From positions 124,001 to 188,000 of the forward strand of contig CT868045.1 in NCBI GenBank assembly GCA_000165425.1: a stretch of 64,000 nucleotides of DNA, read 5' to 3'. Shown in pieces: positions 18,045-64,000 of this stretch. Numbering within the stretch: the first letter of the stretch is position 1; each line of letters begins with the position of its first letter. A program made the position numbers and the translations under genes. The notes below the pieces were generated by a model, which was not told where the DNA came from, did no database searches, and saw only the letters and a list, made by a program, of their open reading frames with translations. The DNA comes from Paramecium tetraurelia. Its lineage: Eukaryota.

Positions 18045-19114
18045 TCATCTTTACAAAAACCGTTCTAACATCGCTTTTATCATCTCATCCATTTAAGTGT
18101 GATATGATATGGCTCTATTGCCTATTTGAGTAGCTTATTCATATTATTTTTCACCTATTTCAAATAGGTAATTATCATATGGCAATTCCATCACTTCTTT
18201 CCAAACTGTGAAGTGCAATTCTAAGGATATGATGAGGATTACATTCTAATCTTCGCAAGAGAGCAACGTATTAATCCTTAGCGTTGACATGAGTATTTTT
18301 GGATTCGGTAAAGAAGAGTTCCTTATCCAATAAATCAAAAGAAGATTCAAGTTAATCATTCATCATTTTGATGAGATATTCAGATATTATGCTTCGCATT
18401 AAACTAACTAATTGGATAGATTCTTATTTCTTATTTGGATTTTATTTTTCTCTGAAGAGTTTGTCAACACTCTTCATAAAGAAATCCACCTCTTAACTTT
18501 ACATCTATTTGAAAGAGCCTATCATAATCTTTGACTCCAATAACTCCAATGTCTTGTATATGTCTTACTCGTCATTCGATTCCAATACTAATTTAAATGA
18601 TTAATTTTAATATACCTTCCTAGATCTTTTAATGGAGATAGTTGAACTCTTCGAATCTTTTACTTATGTCTTCTGGCTATTAGTGTTTTAGCTTGGCCAG
18701 CTCTTTGATATCACCTTCGATTAATTTTTCCTAAATTTAATTATAAATTTACTTTATCTGCAATTATTCGTTTTATCTTTTCTATGACTTCCGGAAATGT
18801 TTCCCTCAAAAACTATTTTATCTCTTCTTTCTCATTTTTGCTGCTTGTCTATTGCTACTTGAAGGATTTGATAAACTAGATTATGACTTTGGCAATACTT
18901 CTTGATAATGCTCCTTGTAAATTGTAAGGCTTTCGGCTTCAAATTCAAGATTGCCCTTTTATATCATCTCCAACTTCTCCAAAGCTGTATAGTATTCCAA
19001 TTAGGATAGGAATTCCTTTATCCCATTCATCTTGTTATACAAGTCCATCAAGTGCTACTCCTGTTTATGCACATATGCAAATGCATTAATTGATAGTAGT
19101 ATAATTAATAACAT
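18045..19114 (-). CDS. Hypothetical secreted helical protein
   Basis: Signal peptide MLLIILLSINAFAY; tiny introns; ends AMLERFLQR-TGA. Confidence 0.6.
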
Positions 19115-57013: not shown

Positions 57014-57284
57014 ATATCAAGTATTAACTTCTTAGTGTTTTCATTAGAAATTCTATTCTAAGCACATTCTTTTATAAACTAATCTTTTTCAATCGGAAAG
57101 GATAAAACAGAACTAAATTCTCTAAGAATACTATTTATTATTTAATTAATTTTACTAAGCTGATAATAAAAATTCCAACAGAACTGTAATATCAATATAA
57201 TTGTAAATAGATTGTGATATTGAATAGTAAGTAATCTAAGGTAATCGATTGAAAAAAAAAAAATTTTGACATCAATATAATTTA

Positions 57285-57871
57285 TCATTATAATTCTGTT
57301 TTTATTTATGTAAATCAAGATATGATTTACTTATGATCTAAGATTATGGACTTGAATACTTGATTTATTAAGATAATTTAGGTGTAAATGTACAAGTATT
57401 AATAATCTATTATTCTTTCTCTTCTTTAAGCTTTTTTATTTTCAATTGCTTCTTTTTTTGAAATATTTCATTTCTATCAACTACTGATAGGCCAACCCAA
57501 TCTTTGTAATGAGATAAATCTTGTTTGATCGAACTCTCTTAATGTTTTAGCTCTCTGAATTCGGAAATCTACTTAAAAAGAGCCATGGATTGTGGTCTGT
57601 ACATTTATTATTTTGTTATAGTTTTTGGAGTCTAACTCTGAGTGGAAGTTGTTTCTGGAACCTTAGTATGTTTTTGCGTTTGTGCTTGAACCTTGGGCAC
57701 TTGAGGTTTAACGAAGAATTTCAAATTCATAAATATGGTCTTTTTCATCTACTAATTTTGTAAATGAGGTTTATAATCCATCTAATTCTTTTTTTAAGTA
57801 CTCATCAGATTACTTAATCTTGATAAATTTTCTTTTAAGGTGTAGTCATCCAATGCTGTTGATTAATTCAT
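57285..57871 (-). CDS. Hypothetical basic protein with CTFTPK motif
   Basis: MNQSTALDDY.. open frame of ~195 codons, KLKEEKEQQIINTCTFTPKL. Confidence 0.6.
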
Positions 57872-58056
57872 TACTACTAATTTATTAATATCATTTTTAA
57901 TTCATTATTAGATTATATTGATAATCATACACACTATTCTCACTTCATTTTAATAATATATAAATGCTTCAAACTCATATCTGTATTATATAATTAAAAA
58001 GCTCGTTGCAAAAAAAGATATTTATTTGTTTTATATTTTATTTATTGCTTTCCATC

Positions 58057-61000
58057 ATGAGTAAGATATTTTTGAGAGGCGGAGGTTGTGGAGCCTCTAA
58101 AAAAATTTAGAAAAAGCACGAATAAGAAATGGAAAGAGGGAAACAAAAAGTTGATTTGACCCAAAAAGAGAGAATGGCTAAGCTTATCCAATAACATAGC
58201 GAAGTTATTTTCAAAAACTCACCAATTGCTATGAGTGAGAAGAAGAAACTGATGTCCAGCTTCTAATTCTTCTTGGATAACAGGTAAGAATTGTGGGGAA
58301 TCATAGTGGATAAGGAGGAATCATCCCAAATTATTGACATCATCTTAACAAATCTCAAACCACTATTGGAATCCTTAAAAATCCTCATTAAAGGGTTCGT
58401 AGCTTATTCTGTCTACTTATCTCAAATCATCTAACTGTTATCTTGGATTGTCTTTTGTTTCTATACCAATGCGCACTCGAAAAAAGAAAATAAGGACAGA
58501 TTTATGAATGTCAAAGATTAAACTGAATACTTAGAGTTAATCACCCAAATAAAGACAGAAATAGATATAGAAAAAAACATCGATAAATACTAGAATAACT
58601 TAGAATACGAACTTTACATTATGGAGTCAATATTTACCATTGTTCCGACTGACAGTGATGAAGCTTAGGAAATAGCAGCTTCCTTTCTTATTGGGGCAGC
58701 TACCTCGTTTCTTTCCTTCTCTATCAATGATCAATTCTTGACTAGTCTAAAGAAGGGTGTTATCTACATTTACAACGAGCATGATAAAGCCAGCAGAAAG
58801 AAAATTCTTAAGGTCATTTTTGCTTTATTATAACTCAAATATGAAATCATAAACAAGATTTAGAAAAGCGAGTTAAAATAAGACTTCATTCACTTGGATC
58901 GATTAAATACAGTTTATAAGGAAGTAGTCAGCAAATCTTCAGACTGGCAAGTCTGGTGCACATGGACTAAAGTGTTATCTTAATTATTCTAATAAAAACT
59001 GATACTCCCCCTGGAAAAAATATAGAGCCTTAAAATATCAGATTAACATTATATTCATAAAAATGAAAATACAAAAACATGCTGGTTGAATATTGACAGT
59101 AGATTAATTGAAAGTGATGCAACTGCAAAATTAATATATCAAAATACAGAAGAATTATAAGAACTTGGTAGATTGTAATATTCAATTTTATACGGATATC
59201 AATAAATGCCAAATTTTGAATCATTATACTCCTCCAAACTCACATAATCGATAGAAAAAGAGAATTTTGATGCATTTCAATTCAATTTAAGTTCAGTGTC
59301 AATTATGTTGCATAATGCTTAGGAAATCAAAAAAGCCCAGGTCTAATTGCAATAGCATGTTGAATTATTGAGTACGACAAACAAATCTAAGGTTTAAGAT
59401 ATTGAAAACCTTCTTGTCAAAGCAATTAATAACACAATCTTATTGTTGGAGTCCATTTATTCATTGCATGAAATTGAAAATCCAAGAGATAATGAATTAG
59501 ACTCTCCAAAGTAATAATTAGCGCAACAAAGTGTAATTTTTTTTAGTCAAAATTTATAAAATCCATCCCCTGGTAAAAAAAATGACGATGATAATGTATG
59601 GTTAGATGAAATTGTCAAATTGAAAAAAAGTTTAGGCAAAAAATTTATCACCTTCTTCTTAAAAAGTTTACTTCTCAAAACTAACAATTAATCAAAAGAA
59701 AAGGCATTAATAGATGACGAAACAAAAGAAGAATACAAAATAGACTTCATCTTAAATTAATCAAAAAAAGAAAAAGATTAAATTATTCAAGAGGATTTTT
59801 AATAATATTAATTTAATGTATTAGATCTTTTGGAAGAAATTGAATTGAGAAGAATCAAAAAAAAAAAAACTAAGACTCCTAATTATTCTCAAATTATCGT
59901 TAATTATAAGTAGGATCCATTTTAAATAGAAACTCTTTAGTTATTGTAGACGAGACTCAAGTATATCAAAATTAAACCTTCTAAACATCAAATGAAGAGC
60001 GAGGAAGAATACAAATTTGGATTTAAAGAAGGAATTAATTTGTTATAGGAAGGATCAGCATTCCTTCGATGGAATCTAAGATTGCTAGTTAGAATGAAGT
60101 TCTACATTTAAGAACTAAGTTCAAACTAACATAATGACAAGTAAGCAAATTAACAAACAAATCAAATAATAGACTCCTTAAAAGGATTTTCATAATAATT
60201 ATCTTCAATAAAAGCTATTCAAAAATGCATTAAGTTTTTTTATAGCAAATATGAGGCTTGTATAAAGTATTAACTAATTGGAAAGGTCTCATAAAAAAGA
60301 AATGTTATATATTAAGTTTTGAAAACTATAACTTTAAAAAAGTTTGAAACTCTCAACATGGTTTATTAAATTCACAAGGAAGCAATAAGAAAAGTAAAAA
60401 ATGTAGGAGTAATTTACATATGCTAATCAATATTTTAAGCTATCTAAAATGAGCATGAGACATTTCTAGAAGATATTGTTCAACTTAAAAGGGCTATTTA
60501 AATGATCATCGACATATTAAATGCGAATGAAAAAAACAACAAAAAAGACTAGGATGAATTCAAAATTTTTTTAAATAATGATATTTTCAACTAAAATTAA
60601 ATAGAAGATCCAGAAAATCATTCTACATGGTTGGCAAATAAGGATGCCCTTTTTAAAATAACTTTATATTATTAAAATTATTGCCAATCTAATAAAAATT
60701 GGTAGAAAAAGAATAAAAATTCCTCTTAAGATGTTACTTAGCAAATTGAGAAGAAATAATAATCGATAAAAGATTACATTGAAAAGATTGAACTAGCTTA
60801 AGGTTACAAAACGATTTAGGAGGAAGATGACACTTTTAAAACAGAATTATATAAAGAAGTAAAATAGCACCTAAATTCTTTATTAGAGTTAACCATCTAA
60901 AATGAATAAGACAATTTAAATGCTGAATGGAATTCTCCTTTAAAAACGAAAGAATTTTTTAATTCATTATTTAATATCATAAAGGACATTGAACATTAGG

Positions 61001-64000
61001 TTTAAGTCTAATTCGGTAACCTAAAATTTATTAATCAATAATAGGGAGTATTTTAGACATTAATAAATAATTCATTGCTTCTTAGAAAAGCAATTAGTTT
61101 ATATCAAAACAAAATAGAACAGAATGAAAAGAAAATTTAGGAATTGGTTGGGAATTATGAGGAGAAATTACCTGAATAAATATTTGATCTAACAAATCTA
61201 TAGAAAATATTTAATGAAGCAAAATTACATCTTAGTCCTAATCTAAAATCAGAAATATTCTTCATCTTAACCCAAATATGGAAAAAGGAAGATGTAACAT
61301 CAGATCCAAGTTACTATGATTAATTTAAAGAAGCAGCAAGTGACTTAATAAACTCAAATAAATGGAGAGTTCGATAATCATGCATATTTGAATTGCTCTA
61401 GTTTAAGCAGAGTTGTCTGACATAGGCTACAGTTGATTTGGCCAGAGGATTATTAGTAAAATGTTAAATATATGAAACTGATAGAAGAAATAAACAATTA
61501 TTAGATGATGAGGACTAAAATCAAGTAGTGAACATGATCTAGTAATGTTGGGCCTAATCAGAAGAGGATGTCTAAATAAAAATTAAATAAAAGCTAGAGG
61601 AATTGAATGATATCGCCTATAAAATAACAATAGAAACCAAATAATACGAGAAATCTAAATACAAGAAAAGGTATGTTGAATTAGAAAGTGAAATATAAGG
61701 CATTGTAAAGAATGCTGAGAGTCTTGGAAATTCACTCGGTACGAGTTTACTCTTCTTTTAGGATATCAAACATGATTTAGTCAACATTTAATCTTAGTTG
61801 AAGAACTTATAAGGTTCAATTGATTAAATCCATAAGGATATTCAATTATTGTAGGGTAGAAGTATAAAAGACTTACTCATAATTAGAATGTAAAGAGTGT
61901 TGCAATAGAGGATTATTTTGAATTCTGAAAATGTGTATGTGCCAATCAAAACGAAAGAGAAGCAAGTGTTAGAAAATCATGAAGATGAAGAGACTCCATT
62001 ATATACTGATGATTTATTTAGCAATGGAGAGATAAATGAATTTATTTGGAAGTAATAGAAATTGAGTCTATTGATTCATGGATAAGCTGGTTCAGGAAAG
62101 AGTACAGCCGCTAGAAAGATAGAGGAATTCTTATGGTTACTATTTAAGAAGAATATGAACATAGCAGAGTCTATCCCTATTATTCCTATATTTGTATCTT
62201 TGCCTTAATTGAAGGATCCAATATCTATGGCTATGGAAGAAACCCTAAAATCAGACAATTACAGATTCAATGAGAAATAGATCATCGAATTTAAAGAAGC
62301 TATTGAATAGAACTAATTTAAAATAGTGATCATTATGGATAGTTATGATGAAATCAAATCAGAATTTACAAATAGAAATCTTATTCTCTCAAATAAATTG
62401 TATAAATGGAGATGCCAATCAGATGAATTGAGATTTCCAAAAATAATTACAACGTCAAGATCAGAAATGTTCACTAATACTGACTATAGATCCTGGTTTT
62501 TACCAGAATCTGAAAATCTATATTTGTATAAAGAAATTAGATTGTTAAATTTTACTAGCGAATAAGTGAACTTATACATTGAATACCATACCATTTTTTC
62601 AGTCAAAAAAATCATTAAAGATTTCTTTTTTAATAATAAGGATAATTCCGGATTTTTTGCATTCGAAGAATTATTTAATGAAATAATTAAAGTTATCAAT
62701 GACAAAGAATAAGAAGATGATAAAAAGGATTAATAATTCTTATTAACTAAAAATTAGATTGAACGAATCTTATCTCTGTGTGAGAGTTTTGTCAGTGGAG
62801 ACATAGCAATAGCGATGAAATAATCTTTAGAGGAAGTTTGGTGTAAAGAATATTATATCAAAAATATAAAACAAATGGATATAGGTTCCTTGTTAGAAAC
62901 ACCATTTATGATTGAAATTGTAGCATCTGTTTTACCTCAAATGATTAAGCATAGATAAGAATTAAATACTTTGAAGGAATCATTTATGAAAAAGCTTTCC
63001 TAATAGGATGAAGTGTCTAAAGAGTAATTGTCAAAAGAATGGTCTAAGATAATTAGCAATGAAAAGTTCTTAGAAGAATATCTAAAGGTCTCAAATGATA
63101 CTGAAAGAGATCTAATTATCTCAGAATTTTTTGGGAAACCTGATAATTCTACAATTGTTCAAGATGCTCTTAAATTAGATCCTCTTTGTTCATATGATTT
63201 TTACGATTAATTTTTTGCTTAGTATTTTAAGAGATAAATAAATAAACTTAGAGAATCTGGGGAATCCTTAGTTTACATTTCAAATTTATCTGATCTTTGG
63301 GAATTCACACACAGATTAGCAAATGATATGACGTTAGATTCATTAAGCTAAGTACAATACATACCACGCATATTCTTATTCCAAAAAAATAGAGATGCTG
63401 ATTGGAGAGATGTTTATTTCAATGATGAATAAGAATAAGGTTAAATTAAAAAGTTATTTAGAAAGATAATGCCAATAAGATAAAAATATGGAATATACTC
63501 CTTCAATCATAAATCCTTATAGGAATTTTTAGTGGCCAAGTGGTTAATTCAATCATTAGAATAATTTAATTTTAATTTATCTGAAGAGTAAATTGATGGC
63601 TAACTCGATGATTTATGTGTTCATAACTTATCTAAGGATTTCATGAATGGCGTTGTAAGGTTTATGGTTGATAAATTAAATCAAAATTAGTATTTGCAAA
63701 AGAAATTATTTGAAATTGTCCTTCTAACTAAAAATAAATAACCAAATGATTAATATAAAGAACTAGATTCAATTAAGATAAGTTAGAATATCAAACTAAA
63801 GAGAGCTTAAACTCAACTTATGGCCTAGCTAAAGGTTTCGCAAGCCTAATACTCAGACAAAGAAAAAACTTAAAGGGTCATCCAAGCAAGTTCTAATAGT
63901 TTATATCTTCTTCATTTATTAAAGTATCCATTTACTGAAGATCTGAGTTCAATTAAAATTAATGAAACTGATTTGCTCAACAGTAACTTCTTTGGAGCAA
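58057..64000 (+). CDS. Very large NACHT-domain STAND NTPase (NLR-like); 3' end beyond window
   Basis: Same frame at sampled points from ATG 58057; Walker A HGQAGSGKST (62077-62106), Walker B VIIMDSYDE, IITTSR, ETPFM, winged-helix YSFNHKSLQEFLVA, start of pentapeptide-like DLSSIKINETDLLNSNFFGA. Confidence 0.9.

What the first reader, a model, noticed from the sequence alone, without database searches (positions are those of the whole stretch)
58057..58104. Ubiquitin-tail mimic LRGG followed by a cryptic myristoylation motif at the N-terminus of an NLR-like NACHT protein
Seen: the protein starts MSKIFLRGG-GCGASKK. Established: LRGG is the C-terminal tetrapeptide after which deubiquitinases cut, and G-C-x-x-S-K at a free N-terminus is a classic N-myristoylation plus Cys-palmitoylation signal (MGCxxS). 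Inference: cleavage after LRGG removes a 9-residue cap and exposes Gly for post-translational acylation. A host or pathogen DUB-like protease could thus license membrane targeting or activation of a ciliate immune-type STAND receptor, although no ubiquitin fold is present.
Basis: partly seen in the sequence, partly recalled or inferred. Interest (0 to 1): 0.85.

Follow-up and report, generated by a model that had tools for sequence, protein, structure and literature searches.

The report
Cut-and-lipidate tag on Paramecium NACHT proteins
The first sixteen residues of this giant Paramecium NACHT protein hold a Leu-Arg-Gly-Gly-Gly-Cys motif that is the best-kept feature of the whole family's front end, even in a bacterial relative. 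It most likely marks where a short leader is cut off so that the new end can receive fatty-acid membrane anchors, but neither the cut nor the lipid has been shown.

Summary
Under the ciliate code, window 58057-58104 reads MSKIFLRGGGCGASKK at the start of a Paramecium NACHT-WD40 protein of more than 1981 residues.

- **Conservation.** All 28 family members with a readable N-terminus carry L-[R/L]-G-G-G. These are Paramecium paralogues down to about 20% identity, one Neptunochlamydia protein and one bacterial metagenome protein. The motif is followed by C (24 of 28), then x-x-S/T (21 of 28) and K (14 of 28).
- **Flanks.** The leader in front varies from 2 to about 117 residues and is not conserved.
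- **Alignments.** In two alignments the only invariant columns were L, G, G, G and one residue inside the domain.
- **Structure.** The motif lies in a disordered tail ahead of an all-helical solenoid domain.

Best reading (about 45%): an LxGG-type cut exposes Gly10 for N-myristoylation and Cys11 for palmitoylation, as a constitutive maturation step. No ubiquitin fold, no protease in the same protein and no published description were found. Cleavage, lipidation and the protease itself remain untested.

Earlier scan notes describe LRGG leader joints in giant viruses, on other DNA and not in this family.

The parts
58057..58071 (+). Variable leader MSKIF (annotated start codon plus 4 residues), proposed to be removed
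   Evidence: Orthologue leaders differ (MSMIF, MNNNTIY, MFISF; MQ or MI in paralogues). Positions -8 to -1 are unconserved in 28 proteins.
58072..58083 (+). L6-R7-G8-G9, an LxGG junction (ubiquitin-tail-like), the proposed P4-P1 of a cut site
   Evidence: L 28/28, R 26/28 (L in the 2 bacterial proteins), G 28/28 and G 28/28. Invariant columns in A2 and A5.
58084..58104 (+). G10-C11-G12-A13-S14-K15-K16, the proposed N-myristoylation (Gly10) plus S-palmitoylation (Cys11) signal once Gly10 is exposed
   Evidence: Third Gly 28/28, C 24/28, S or T at position 5 in 21/28, K at position 6 in 14/28. The PROSITE-type pattern passes in 23/28 against 23.4% of internal Gly. A Cys lies within 4 residues in 27/28.
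58162..58992 (+). All-helical solenoid domain (residues 36-312) of no known family, always found directly behind the motif
   Evidence: AF2 model with mean pLDDT 83 and pTM 0.79, helices 36-312. Only generic HEAT/ARM-like fold matches. No Pfam or PDB sequence match.
62068..62379 (+). NACHT NTPase core (residues 1338-1441), with Walker A GQAGSGKST at 62080-62106 and VIIMDSYDE at 62326-62352
   Evidence: Pfam PF05729 at 28.4 bits against a 26.7 cut-off. Motif positions.
58057..63999 (+). Intron-free reading frame of the NACHT-WD40 gene as far as the window reaches (1981 of 2830 residues). The pentapeptide and WD40 parts lie beyond the window.
   Evidence: RNA contigs are identical to 58161-58794 without joints.
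57872..58056 (.). A+T-rich spacer between this gene and a divergent minus-strand ORF (57272-57871). It leaves no room for an upstream ubiquitin exon.
   Evidence: ORF list. RNA depth from the neighbour falls to near zero in the 57846-57886 bin and is zero from 57887 to 58091 in 3 RNA runs.

Best explanation
The motif is a two-part maturation signal shared by a family of Paramecium solenoid-NACHT-WD40 proteins. Step 1 (inferred): an endopeptidase that reads Leu at P4 and Gly-Gly at P2-P1, the specificity of ubiquitin-tail and papain-like LxGG proteases, cuts between Gly9 and Gly10 and removes a short, unconserved leader. Step 2 (inferred): the new N-terminal Gly10, in the context G-C-G-A-S-K-K, is myristoylated by N-myristoyltransferase. 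Cys11 is then palmitoylated. The lipids tether the helical domain, and with it the NTPase, to a membrane. Because every paralogue and two bacterial homologues keep the junction, the cut is most likely made constitutively by a host-cell enzyme and not triggered by a pathogen. In the chlamydial protein the leader of about 117 residues could serve bacterial export before removal in the host; that last point is speculation. What is shown: the sequence, its extreme conservation compared with its flanks, its place in a disordered tail, and the absence of a ubiquitin fold or a conserved catalytic set in the same protein. What is not shown: the cut, the lipids, the protease and the membrane.
For: 1. 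L-x-G-G-G is present in 28 of 28 assessable proteins. These include 14 of the 14 proteins returned and 14 of the 18 representatives of 200 aa or more.
2. The only invariant columns in A2 were L6, G8, G9, G10 and Q70, with R7, C11 and S14 at 90% or more. In A5 they were L, G, G, G and one Trp. The consensus of the 45-row A3 shows LRGGGC as its only run.
3. Positions -8 to -1 are unconserved and leader length varies from 2 to 117 residues, or up to 162 in gene models that look over-extended.
4. With the third Gly as acceptor, Ser or Thr sits at position 5 in 21/28, against 7.7% for 1448 internal Gly of the same proteins. The pattern G-{EDRKHPFYW}-x(2)-[STAGCN]-{P} passes in 23/28 against 23.4%.
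5. The residue after the acceptor is C in 24, and V, V, S or N in the other four. Three of those four have a Cys 2-4 residues further on. The fourth reads GNSSSK. That spread is what is recalled for myristoyl plus palmitoyl versus myristoyl-only proteins.
6. Residues 1-30 have block-mean pLDDT 47-55 ahead of a confident helical domain. In the bacterial homologue the motif lies in a stretch with pLDDT below 50.
7. Precedents exist. AvrPphB, ORF4 and NopT process themselves to expose embedded fatty-acylation sites (abstract of PMC2708883). The rubella papain-like protease was assayed on LSRGG and RLRGG peptides that have no ubiquitin body (passages of PMC9271420). [quoted passage not shown]
Against: No experiment or read-out here shows a cut or a lipid. 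I know of no eukaryotic endopeptidase shown to cut LxGG behind a leader of only 2-7 residues without a ubiquitin fold. Five of 28 proteins fail the acylation pattern in the LRGG|G register (M, P, F, F or W at position 5). The loose pattern passes about as often in the other two registers (25/28 and 22/28), so the exact cut position is not fixed by sequence. The conserved Ser is the only thing favouring the third Gly. The 28 proteins are not independent: the tree shows about four deep Paramecium clades plus the bacterial pair. The true 5' end of the mRNA, and so the leader length in this gene, is unresolved. Nothing is known about the localisation of any family member. Searches found no paper on the motif.
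Confidence: 0.45

Rival explanations
1. The N-terminus is not cut. LRGGGC is a docking or hinge motif, for example for a palmitoyl-transferase acting on Cys11 alone, or for a partner protein that grips the flexible tail.
For: No protease is known for such short leaders. Cys is kept in 24/28, and a Cys lies within 4 residues in 27/28. Five of 28 fail the myristoylation pattern. The tail is disordered, as short linear binding motifs usually are.
Against: This does not explain why the residues in front are free to vary in length from 2 to 117 while L, G, G, G are invariant. It does not explain why Ser sits exactly four residues after the third Gly in 21/28. It does not explain why the one protein without Cys reads GNSSSK, a form recalled from myristoyl-only proteins.
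Confidence: 0.2
2. Licensing or tripwire. The junction is a bait for a pathogen's or symbiont's ubiquitin-tail protease (clan CE or papain-like). The cut happens only on infection and switches the NACHT protein on by sending it to a membrane.
For: The NACHT-WD40 architecture resembles NLR-type sensors. LxGG is the site type of viral papain-like proteases (passages of PMC9271420). Cleavage-activated NLRs exist (NLRP1; title and abstract start of PMC7857732). Earlier scan notes e1-5981988 and e1-5523392 report LRGG leader joints in giant viruses (untested here).
Against: Baits in NLRP1 and CARD8 lie in rapidly evolving regions (abstract start of PMC10249858). Here the site is invariant across about 18.6 changes per site of tree. 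It is also kept by two bacterial homologues, which a symbiont would hardly do with a tripwire. No homologue was found in viral contigs. No immune role is shown for any family member.
Confidence: 0.12
3. Self-processing. The protein cuts its own N-terminus, either through a hidden protease domain or through an N-to-S acyl shift at Cys11 as in hedgehog or intein domains.
For: The junction always travels with the helical domain, in ciliates and bacteria alike. Gly-Cys is the hedgehog-type scissile pair (recalled). AvrPphB is a self-cutting precedent.
Against: Among 15 full-length members no Cys, His, Asp or Ser is invariant or nearly so in the roughly 1330 residues ahead of the NTPase. Only four Glu are. 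The domain behind the motif is a helical solenoid, not a Hint or papain fold. Cys11 is replaced or displaced in 4 of 28.
Confidence: 0.06
4. Chance or gene-model artefact: the motif is not at the true N-terminus, or it has no function.
For: There is an in-frame upstream ATG at 57964. RNA depth is too low to place the 5' end. Several family gene models are clearly imperfect.
Against: Composition gives about 6e-8 per position for L-R-G-G-G (my product of the frequencies), yet 28 of 28 proteins have it. A longer leader would not remove the motif or its conservation. There are no reads at 57887-58091 and a divergent neighbour gene lies close by.
Confidence: 0.02

Closest known systems
AvrPphB, ORF4 and NopT (YopT-family type III effectors) with embedded acylation sites
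   Same: A leader is removed inside the eukaryotic cell, and the new N-terminus is a fatty-acylation site that sends the protein to the plasma membrane (abstract of PMC2708883). The Gly-Cys start of that site is recalled. The chlamydial homologue P0037, with its leader of about 117 residues, has the same layout.
   Different: Those effectors are papain-like proteases that cut themselves. Here no catalytic residues are conserved and the domain is a helical solenoid. The cut-site context differs: LxGG here, whereas the AvrPphB site is recalled to follow a Lys.
Post-translational N-myristoylation after caspase cleavage (BID, actin, PAK2, BFSP1)
   Same: An internal Gly becomes an N-myristoyltransferase substrate only after endoproteolysis (BFSP1: abstract starts of PMC6713518 and PMC10297038; BID, actin and PAK2 recalled).
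   Different: Those cuts follow Asp, are made by caspases during apoptosis, and occur in unrelated single proteins. Here the site is LxGG, sits 2-117 residues from the start, and is a family-wide feature.
Ubiquitin-like precursors and LxGG sites of papain-like and clan-CE viral proteases (ISG15 and NEDD8 precursors, coronavirus PLpro, adenain, rubella RubPro)
   Same: The same P4-P1 pattern (Leu-x-Gly-Gly), and in several of these a Gly at P1'. Rubella LSRGGG and RLRGGG come from passages of PMC9271420. ISG15 and NEDD8 LRGG|G, PLpro and adenain are recalled.
   Different: No ubiquitin fold precedes the site. No such protease is known in Paramecium for this substrate, and nothing was found nearby.
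N-terminally acylated plant coiled-coil NLRs (for example RPS5) and protease-sensing NLRP1/CARD8
   Same: STAND or NLR-type proteins whose N-terminus carries lipid anchors (abstract start of PMC11467418; listing of PMC3801107) or a protease site that controls activity (PMC7857732 and PMC10249858).
   Different: Plant NLRs start directly with Met-Gly (recalled), so they need no cut. NLRP1 and CARD8 baits evolve fast and act through FIIND-dependent degradation. No FIIND, CARD or coiled-coil CC domain was found by Pfam here.
LRGG leader joints on giant-virus proteins
   Same: A variable N-terminal leader joined to the cargo through Leu-Arg-Gly-Gly, read there as a protease site.
   Different: Different organisms and unrelated cargo proteins. 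No acylation motif was reported behind the joint. Those notes are unchecked, and no viral homologue of this family was found.

Membership tests
NACHT / STAND NTPases | Match to the NACHT profile above the curated threshold | tested here: met
   PF05729 at 28.4 bits against a 26.7 cut-off, residues 1338-1441.
NACHT / STAND NTPases | Walker A GxxxxGK[ST] and a Walker B hydrophobic run ending in D..DE | tested here: met
   GQAGSGKST at 1342-1350 and VIIMDSYDE at 1424-1432. Walker A is invariant in 15 full-length members.
NACHT / STAND NTPases | C-terminal repeat (sensor) region | tested here: met
   WD40 and beta-propeller matches plus a pentapeptide-repeat match in orthologue P0003 and paralogue P0006. 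This part lies beyond the window.
Co- or post-translationally N-myristoylated, palmitoylated (dual-acylated) proteins | A Gly with a free alpha-amino group at the N-terminus | not testable with these tools
   In the primary product the candidate Gly is residue 10. It would be free only after a cut that was not observed.
Co- or post-translationally N-myristoylated, palmitoylated (dual-acylated) proteins | Sequence context G-{EDRKHPFYW}-x(2)-[STAGCN]-{P} (pattern recalled from PROSITE), ideally Ser at position 5 and Lys at 6, with a Cys next to the Gly | tested here: met
   GCGASK in the window. 23/28 family members pass, 21/28 have S or T at position 5, and 27/28 have a Cys within 4 residues. 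Background is 23.4% and 7.7%.
Co- or post-translationally N-myristoylated, palmitoylated (dual-acylated) proteins | Lipid actually attached | not testable with these tools
   Needs metabolic labelling or mass spectrometry.
Ubiquitin-like modifier precursors and ubiquitin fusion proteins | A beta-grasp ubiquitin fold directly in front of the Gly-Gly | tested here: not met
   The leader is 5 residues (2-28 in most paralogues) and residues 1-30 are disordered. There is no room upstream. The bacterial leader has no Pfam match above threshold and is modelled as helices at low confidence. That last model alone would be inconclusive.
Ubiquitin-like modifier precursors and ubiquitin fusion proteins | Leu-x-Gly-Gly tail at the processing site | tested here: met
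   L 28/28, x = R 26 or L 2, G 28/28 and G 28/28.
Self-processing effectors of the AvrPphB/YopT type | Papain-like domain with a conserved Cys-His-Asp set | tested here: not met
   No Cys, His or Asp is invariant or nearly so ahead of the NTPase in 15 full-length members. The fold is a helical solenoid.
Protease-bait (tripwire) NLRs of the NLRP1/CARD8 type | Fast-evolving bait region and FIIND-type self-cleaving module | tested here: not met
   The site is invariant across the family. No FIIND or CARD match in Pfam scans.

The most novel reading that the evidence does not exclude
A dedicated Leu-x-Gly-Gly endopeptidase, deubiquitinase-like or clan-CE-like and either the cell's own or a symbiont's or virus's, gates the lipid anchoring of an entire family of NLR-like NACHT-WD40 proteins in Paramecium. 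Membrane recruitment and activation would then depend on protease activity. A chlamydial symbiont carries a copy that uses the same gate inside its host. This would be a protease-to-N-myristoyltransferase relay on STAND proteins, and a route to innate-immunity-like sensing in ciliates.
Probability: 0.15. Interest if true: 0.9.

Novelty: new variant of a known kind. Interest (0 to 1): 0.7.

Why it matters
Lipid anchors that are hidden until a protease exposes them are known from a few apoptotic substrates and a few bacterial effectors. Each of those has its own cut site. Here the same idea appears as the defining, most conserved feature of a whole family of NLR-like NTPases in a ciliate, and it is joined to the cut-site grammar of the ubiquitin system without any ubiquitin fold.

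If the cut and the lipids are confirmed, three things follow:
- It would point to an endopeptidase that reads a bare LxGG peptide, a substrate class not assigned to any eukaryotic enzyme that I know of.
- It would give the first handle on where these unstudied ciliate STAND proteins act.
- It would explain why a chlamydial relative keeps the same junction behind a long leader.

It also yields a simple, searchable sequence rule, M-x(1-60)-L-x-G-G-G-[CN]-x-x-[ST], for finding more such proteins.

Tried and rejected
- **Collection scans.** Two scans of genome contigs for the bacterial homologue found nothing. The metagenome scan returned only the contig of P0035. The viral-contig scan found no relative.
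- **Third word-indexed search.** This 'near' search was swamped by chance candidates and returned only 2 proteins, not even its own query members, so it says nothing.
- **Fold and family of the helical domain.** Foldseek on PDB gave no match at E <= 0.001. VIA-align gave a best Z of 12.1 on a nuclear-pore solenoid, within the range the tool calls common for helical repeats. ESM Atlas scores were all below 0.9. The PDB sequence search gave nothing below E 0.047. PADLOC gave nothing for the window protein.
- **Upstream ubiquitin exon: rejected.** The spacer is 185 bp, the neighbour gene is divergent, and there are no reads.
- **Signal peptide or lipobox reading: rejected.** It would depend on the T-rich in-frame extension from 57964. 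Other members, including MQLRGGGC and the bacterial leaders, have no hydrophobic stretch before the motif.
- **P-loop or RGG-box reading of GGGCGASKK: rejected.** The segment is disordered, and only L, G, G, G, C and S are kept.
- **N-terminal Cys exposure (GGG|C): rejected.** Cys is displaced or missing in 4 of 28.
- **RNA 5' end.** Three raw RNA runs gave depth of about 2 or less over this gene and none before 58092, so the start of the transcript is undecided.
- **Direction of gene transfer between Paramecium and chlamydiae.** The tree only separates the two groups and has no outgroup, so it is undecided.
Full report
**What is there**

The window is low-GC DNA. Long genes appear only when TAA and TAG are read as Gln. 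The closest named proteins are from Paramecium octaurelia, primaurelia and sonneborni (95, 84 and 73% identity over the first 400 residues). The window is therefore macronuclear DNA of a Paramecium aurelia-complex species.

At 58057 an ATG opens a frame that runs to the end of the window. The stored whole protein has 2830 residues and matches the window's 1981. Its parts are:
- a Pfam NACHT match above threshold at residues 1338-1441;
- Walker A at 1342-1350 and Walker B at 1424-1432;
- in the full-length orthologue and paralogue, a pentapeptide-repeat stretch and WD40 propellers further on.

The 1330 residues ahead of the NTPase match no Pfam family.

**Is the motif more than chance?**

In the window alone it would be a curiosity. 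LRGG occurs twice in six frames against 0.415 expected. The comparison with relatives settles the matter.

- The three orthologues read MSMIFLRGGGCGASKK, MNNNTIYLRGGGCGTSKK and MFISFLRGGGCAATKV. Two paralogues at 35-37% identity read MQLRGGGVGC and MQLRGGGCVS.
- A profile of the first 480 residues, searched against 1.84 billion representatives, gave 34 hits. Sixteen are fragments of 53-121 residues and cannot be judged.
- Of the 18 hits of 200 residues or more, 14 carry L-x-G-G-G. One has F-A-G-G-G-C (P0015). One lacks the motif, where the gene model looks frame-shifted; that is my reading of the residues only (P0028). Two start inside the domain (P0034, P0036).
- A second search returned 14 long proteins, and all 14 have the motif. 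One of these is from Paramecium bursaria.
- In total, 28 of 28 distinct proteins with a readable front end have L-[R 26 / L 2]-G-G-G. This is followed by C in 24, G in 19, any residue, S or T in 21, and K in 14. The eight positions in front show no conservation.
- In an 11-sequence alignment at 18-26% identity to the window protein, the only invariant columns were L6, G8, G9, G10 and Q70. In a 20-sequence alignment headed by a bacterial member they were L, G, G, G and one Trp.
- The family tree has at least four deep Paramecium clades plus a bacterial pair. Its printed branch lengths sum to about 18.6 changes per site by my addition.

The motif is the most strongly selected element of the whole N-terminal region.

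**The bacterial relatives**

Two members are not from Paramecium.
- P0037 is a 1450-residue NACHT protein of Candidatus Neptunochlamydia sp. REUL1. It is alignable from the helical domain through the NTPase.
- P0035 is a 461-residue ORF that reads through with the bacterial code on a 1750-base metagenome contig.

Both carry a leader of about 110-117 residues that is conserved between the two. It ends in ...LLGGG, followed by CGVS or NSSSK. The leader has no Pfam family. It is modelled, at low confidence, as helices and not as a beta-grasp fold.

**Anatomy around the motif**

The AlphaFold model of residues 1-350 (45-row alignment, mean pLDDT 83, pTM 0.79) puts residues 1-30 in a low-confidence tail. 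Residues 36-312 form a bundle of twelve helices. Fold searches give only generic HEAT/ARM-like solenoid matches. Sequence searches of the PDB and of PADLOC give nothing.

Upstream of the gene there are only about 185 A+T-rich bases before a divergent minus-strand ORF. That ORF is covered by RNA reads up to about 57860, and no read lies between 57887 and 58091. There is no room for a ubiquitin-coding exon.

**How it most likely works**

The pattern of what is fixed and what is free reads like two adjoining enzyme-recognition sites.
- **Front half.** Leu-x-Gly-Gly has Leu and both Gly fixed and the second position free (R or L). This is the P4-P1 rule recalled for ubiquitin-tail hydrolases, coronavirus PLpro and adenain. 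The rubella protease paper uses LSRGGG and RLRGGG and shows turnover of bare LSRGG and RLRGG peptides (passages).
- **Back half.** G-C-x-x-S-K is the classical context for N-myristoylation with adjacent palmitoylation. Taking the third Gly as acceptor puts Ser or Thr at position 5 in 21 of 28, against 7.7% for internal glycines of the same proteins.
- **The four proteins without Cys next to the Gly.** They have VGC, VSC, SSIC or, in one bacterial case, N. A floating Cys and a Cys-to-Asn swap are what one sees among acylated proteins (recalled).

I therefore favour the following sequence of events: a cut between Gly9 and Gly10, myristate on Gly10, palmitate on Cys11, then membrane tethering. 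The cut is probably constitutive, because all paralogues and the bacterial members keep the junction unchanged.

A leader removed to expose an embedded acylation site has an exact precedent in AvrPphB, ORF4 and NopT (abstract). It has another in caspase substrates such as BFSP1 (abstract starts).

**What speaks against it**

- Nothing here shows a cut or a lipid.
- Five of 28 fail the pattern in this register.
- The loose pattern passes about as often with the first or second Gly as acceptor (25 and 22 of 28).
- Leaders as short as Met-Gln or Met-Ile leave a protease little beyond P4-P1 to hold.
- I know of no eukaryotic enzyme shown to do this without a ubiquitin body.

**Rivals**

- **An uncut docking or palmitoylation motif (0.2).** This does not explain the free leader or the fixed Ser spacing.
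It fits the NLR-like architecture and the LxGG preference of pathogen proteases. It fits poorly with an invariant site that a chlamydia also keeps, since known baits evolve fast (abstract start of PMC10249858).
- **Self-processing (0.06).** It lacks any conserved Cys, His, Asp or Ser in 15 full-length members and lacks a suitable fold.
- **Artefact or chance (0.02).**

**Novelty**

Four literature searches turned up no description of this motif or of acylation of ciliate NACHT proteins. The searches were Paramecium with NACHT, LRGG with N-myristoylation, the strings LRGGGC and LRGGG, and deubiquitinase with myristoylation and N-terminal glycine. They cover only the held library.

Earlier notes of this scan describe LRGG leader joints on giant-virus proteins. 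They concern other DNA and other proteins, and I did not test them.

I class the finding as a new variant of a known kind, namely protease-exposed lipid anchors. It is here joined to ubiquitin-tail grammar and fixed across an NLR-like family.

Noticed in passing
P0037 (Candidatus Neptunochlamydia sp. REUL1) and L001:352-1737: A chlamydial genome encodes a 1450-residue homologue of this Paramecium family (helical domain, middle region and NACHT). A bacterial-code metagenome ORF encodes the leader plus the helical domain only. This suggests gene transfer between ciliates and chlamydia-like bacteria. The tree separates the two groups (100/100) but cannot give the direction.
   Followed up: partly
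window 57964-58056: An in-frame ATG lies 31 codons upstream of the annotated start. It would add a T-rich, hydrophobic extension (MLQTHICIIQLKSSLQKKIFICFIFYLLLSI). No RNA read covers it, but depth is too low to exclude its use.
   Followed up: partly
window 57272-57871 (minus strand): A divergent 199-codon ORF is covered by stranded RNA reads up to about 57860. It shares a spacer of about 185 bp with the NACHT gene, presumably a bidirectional promoter region.
   Followed up: no
window 18485-18496 (minus strand): This is the only other LRGG in the six-frame translation (…VKLRGGFLYEEC, followed by a TGA stop). It is internal, has no Gly-Cys behind it, and looks coincidental.
   Followed up: no
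P0009-P0013, P0015, P0018, P0022, P0028, P0031 (Paramecium gene models of 275-818 aa): Many family members are annotated as short proteins without NACHT. P0013 (639 aa) sits in the same 90% cluster as the 2827-residue NACHT protein P0041. Several of these are therefore probably truncated or split gene models or pseudogenes. P0015 (FAGGGC) and P0028 (no motif) share an odd upstream part.
   Followed up: partly
P0002 versus P0003-P0005 (beyond the window's end): The stored model of the window's own protein is 2830 aa and ends differently from its 3107-3149-aa orthologues. The gene's 3' end, outside the window, may be mis-modelled or truncated.
   Followed up: no
P0003 residues 1975-2019: A pentapeptide-repeat stretch sits between the NACHT module and the WD40 propellers (Pfam PF13599, E 6.3e-05, below the curated cut-off). 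This is an unusual spacer for a NACHT-WD40 protein.
   Followed up: no
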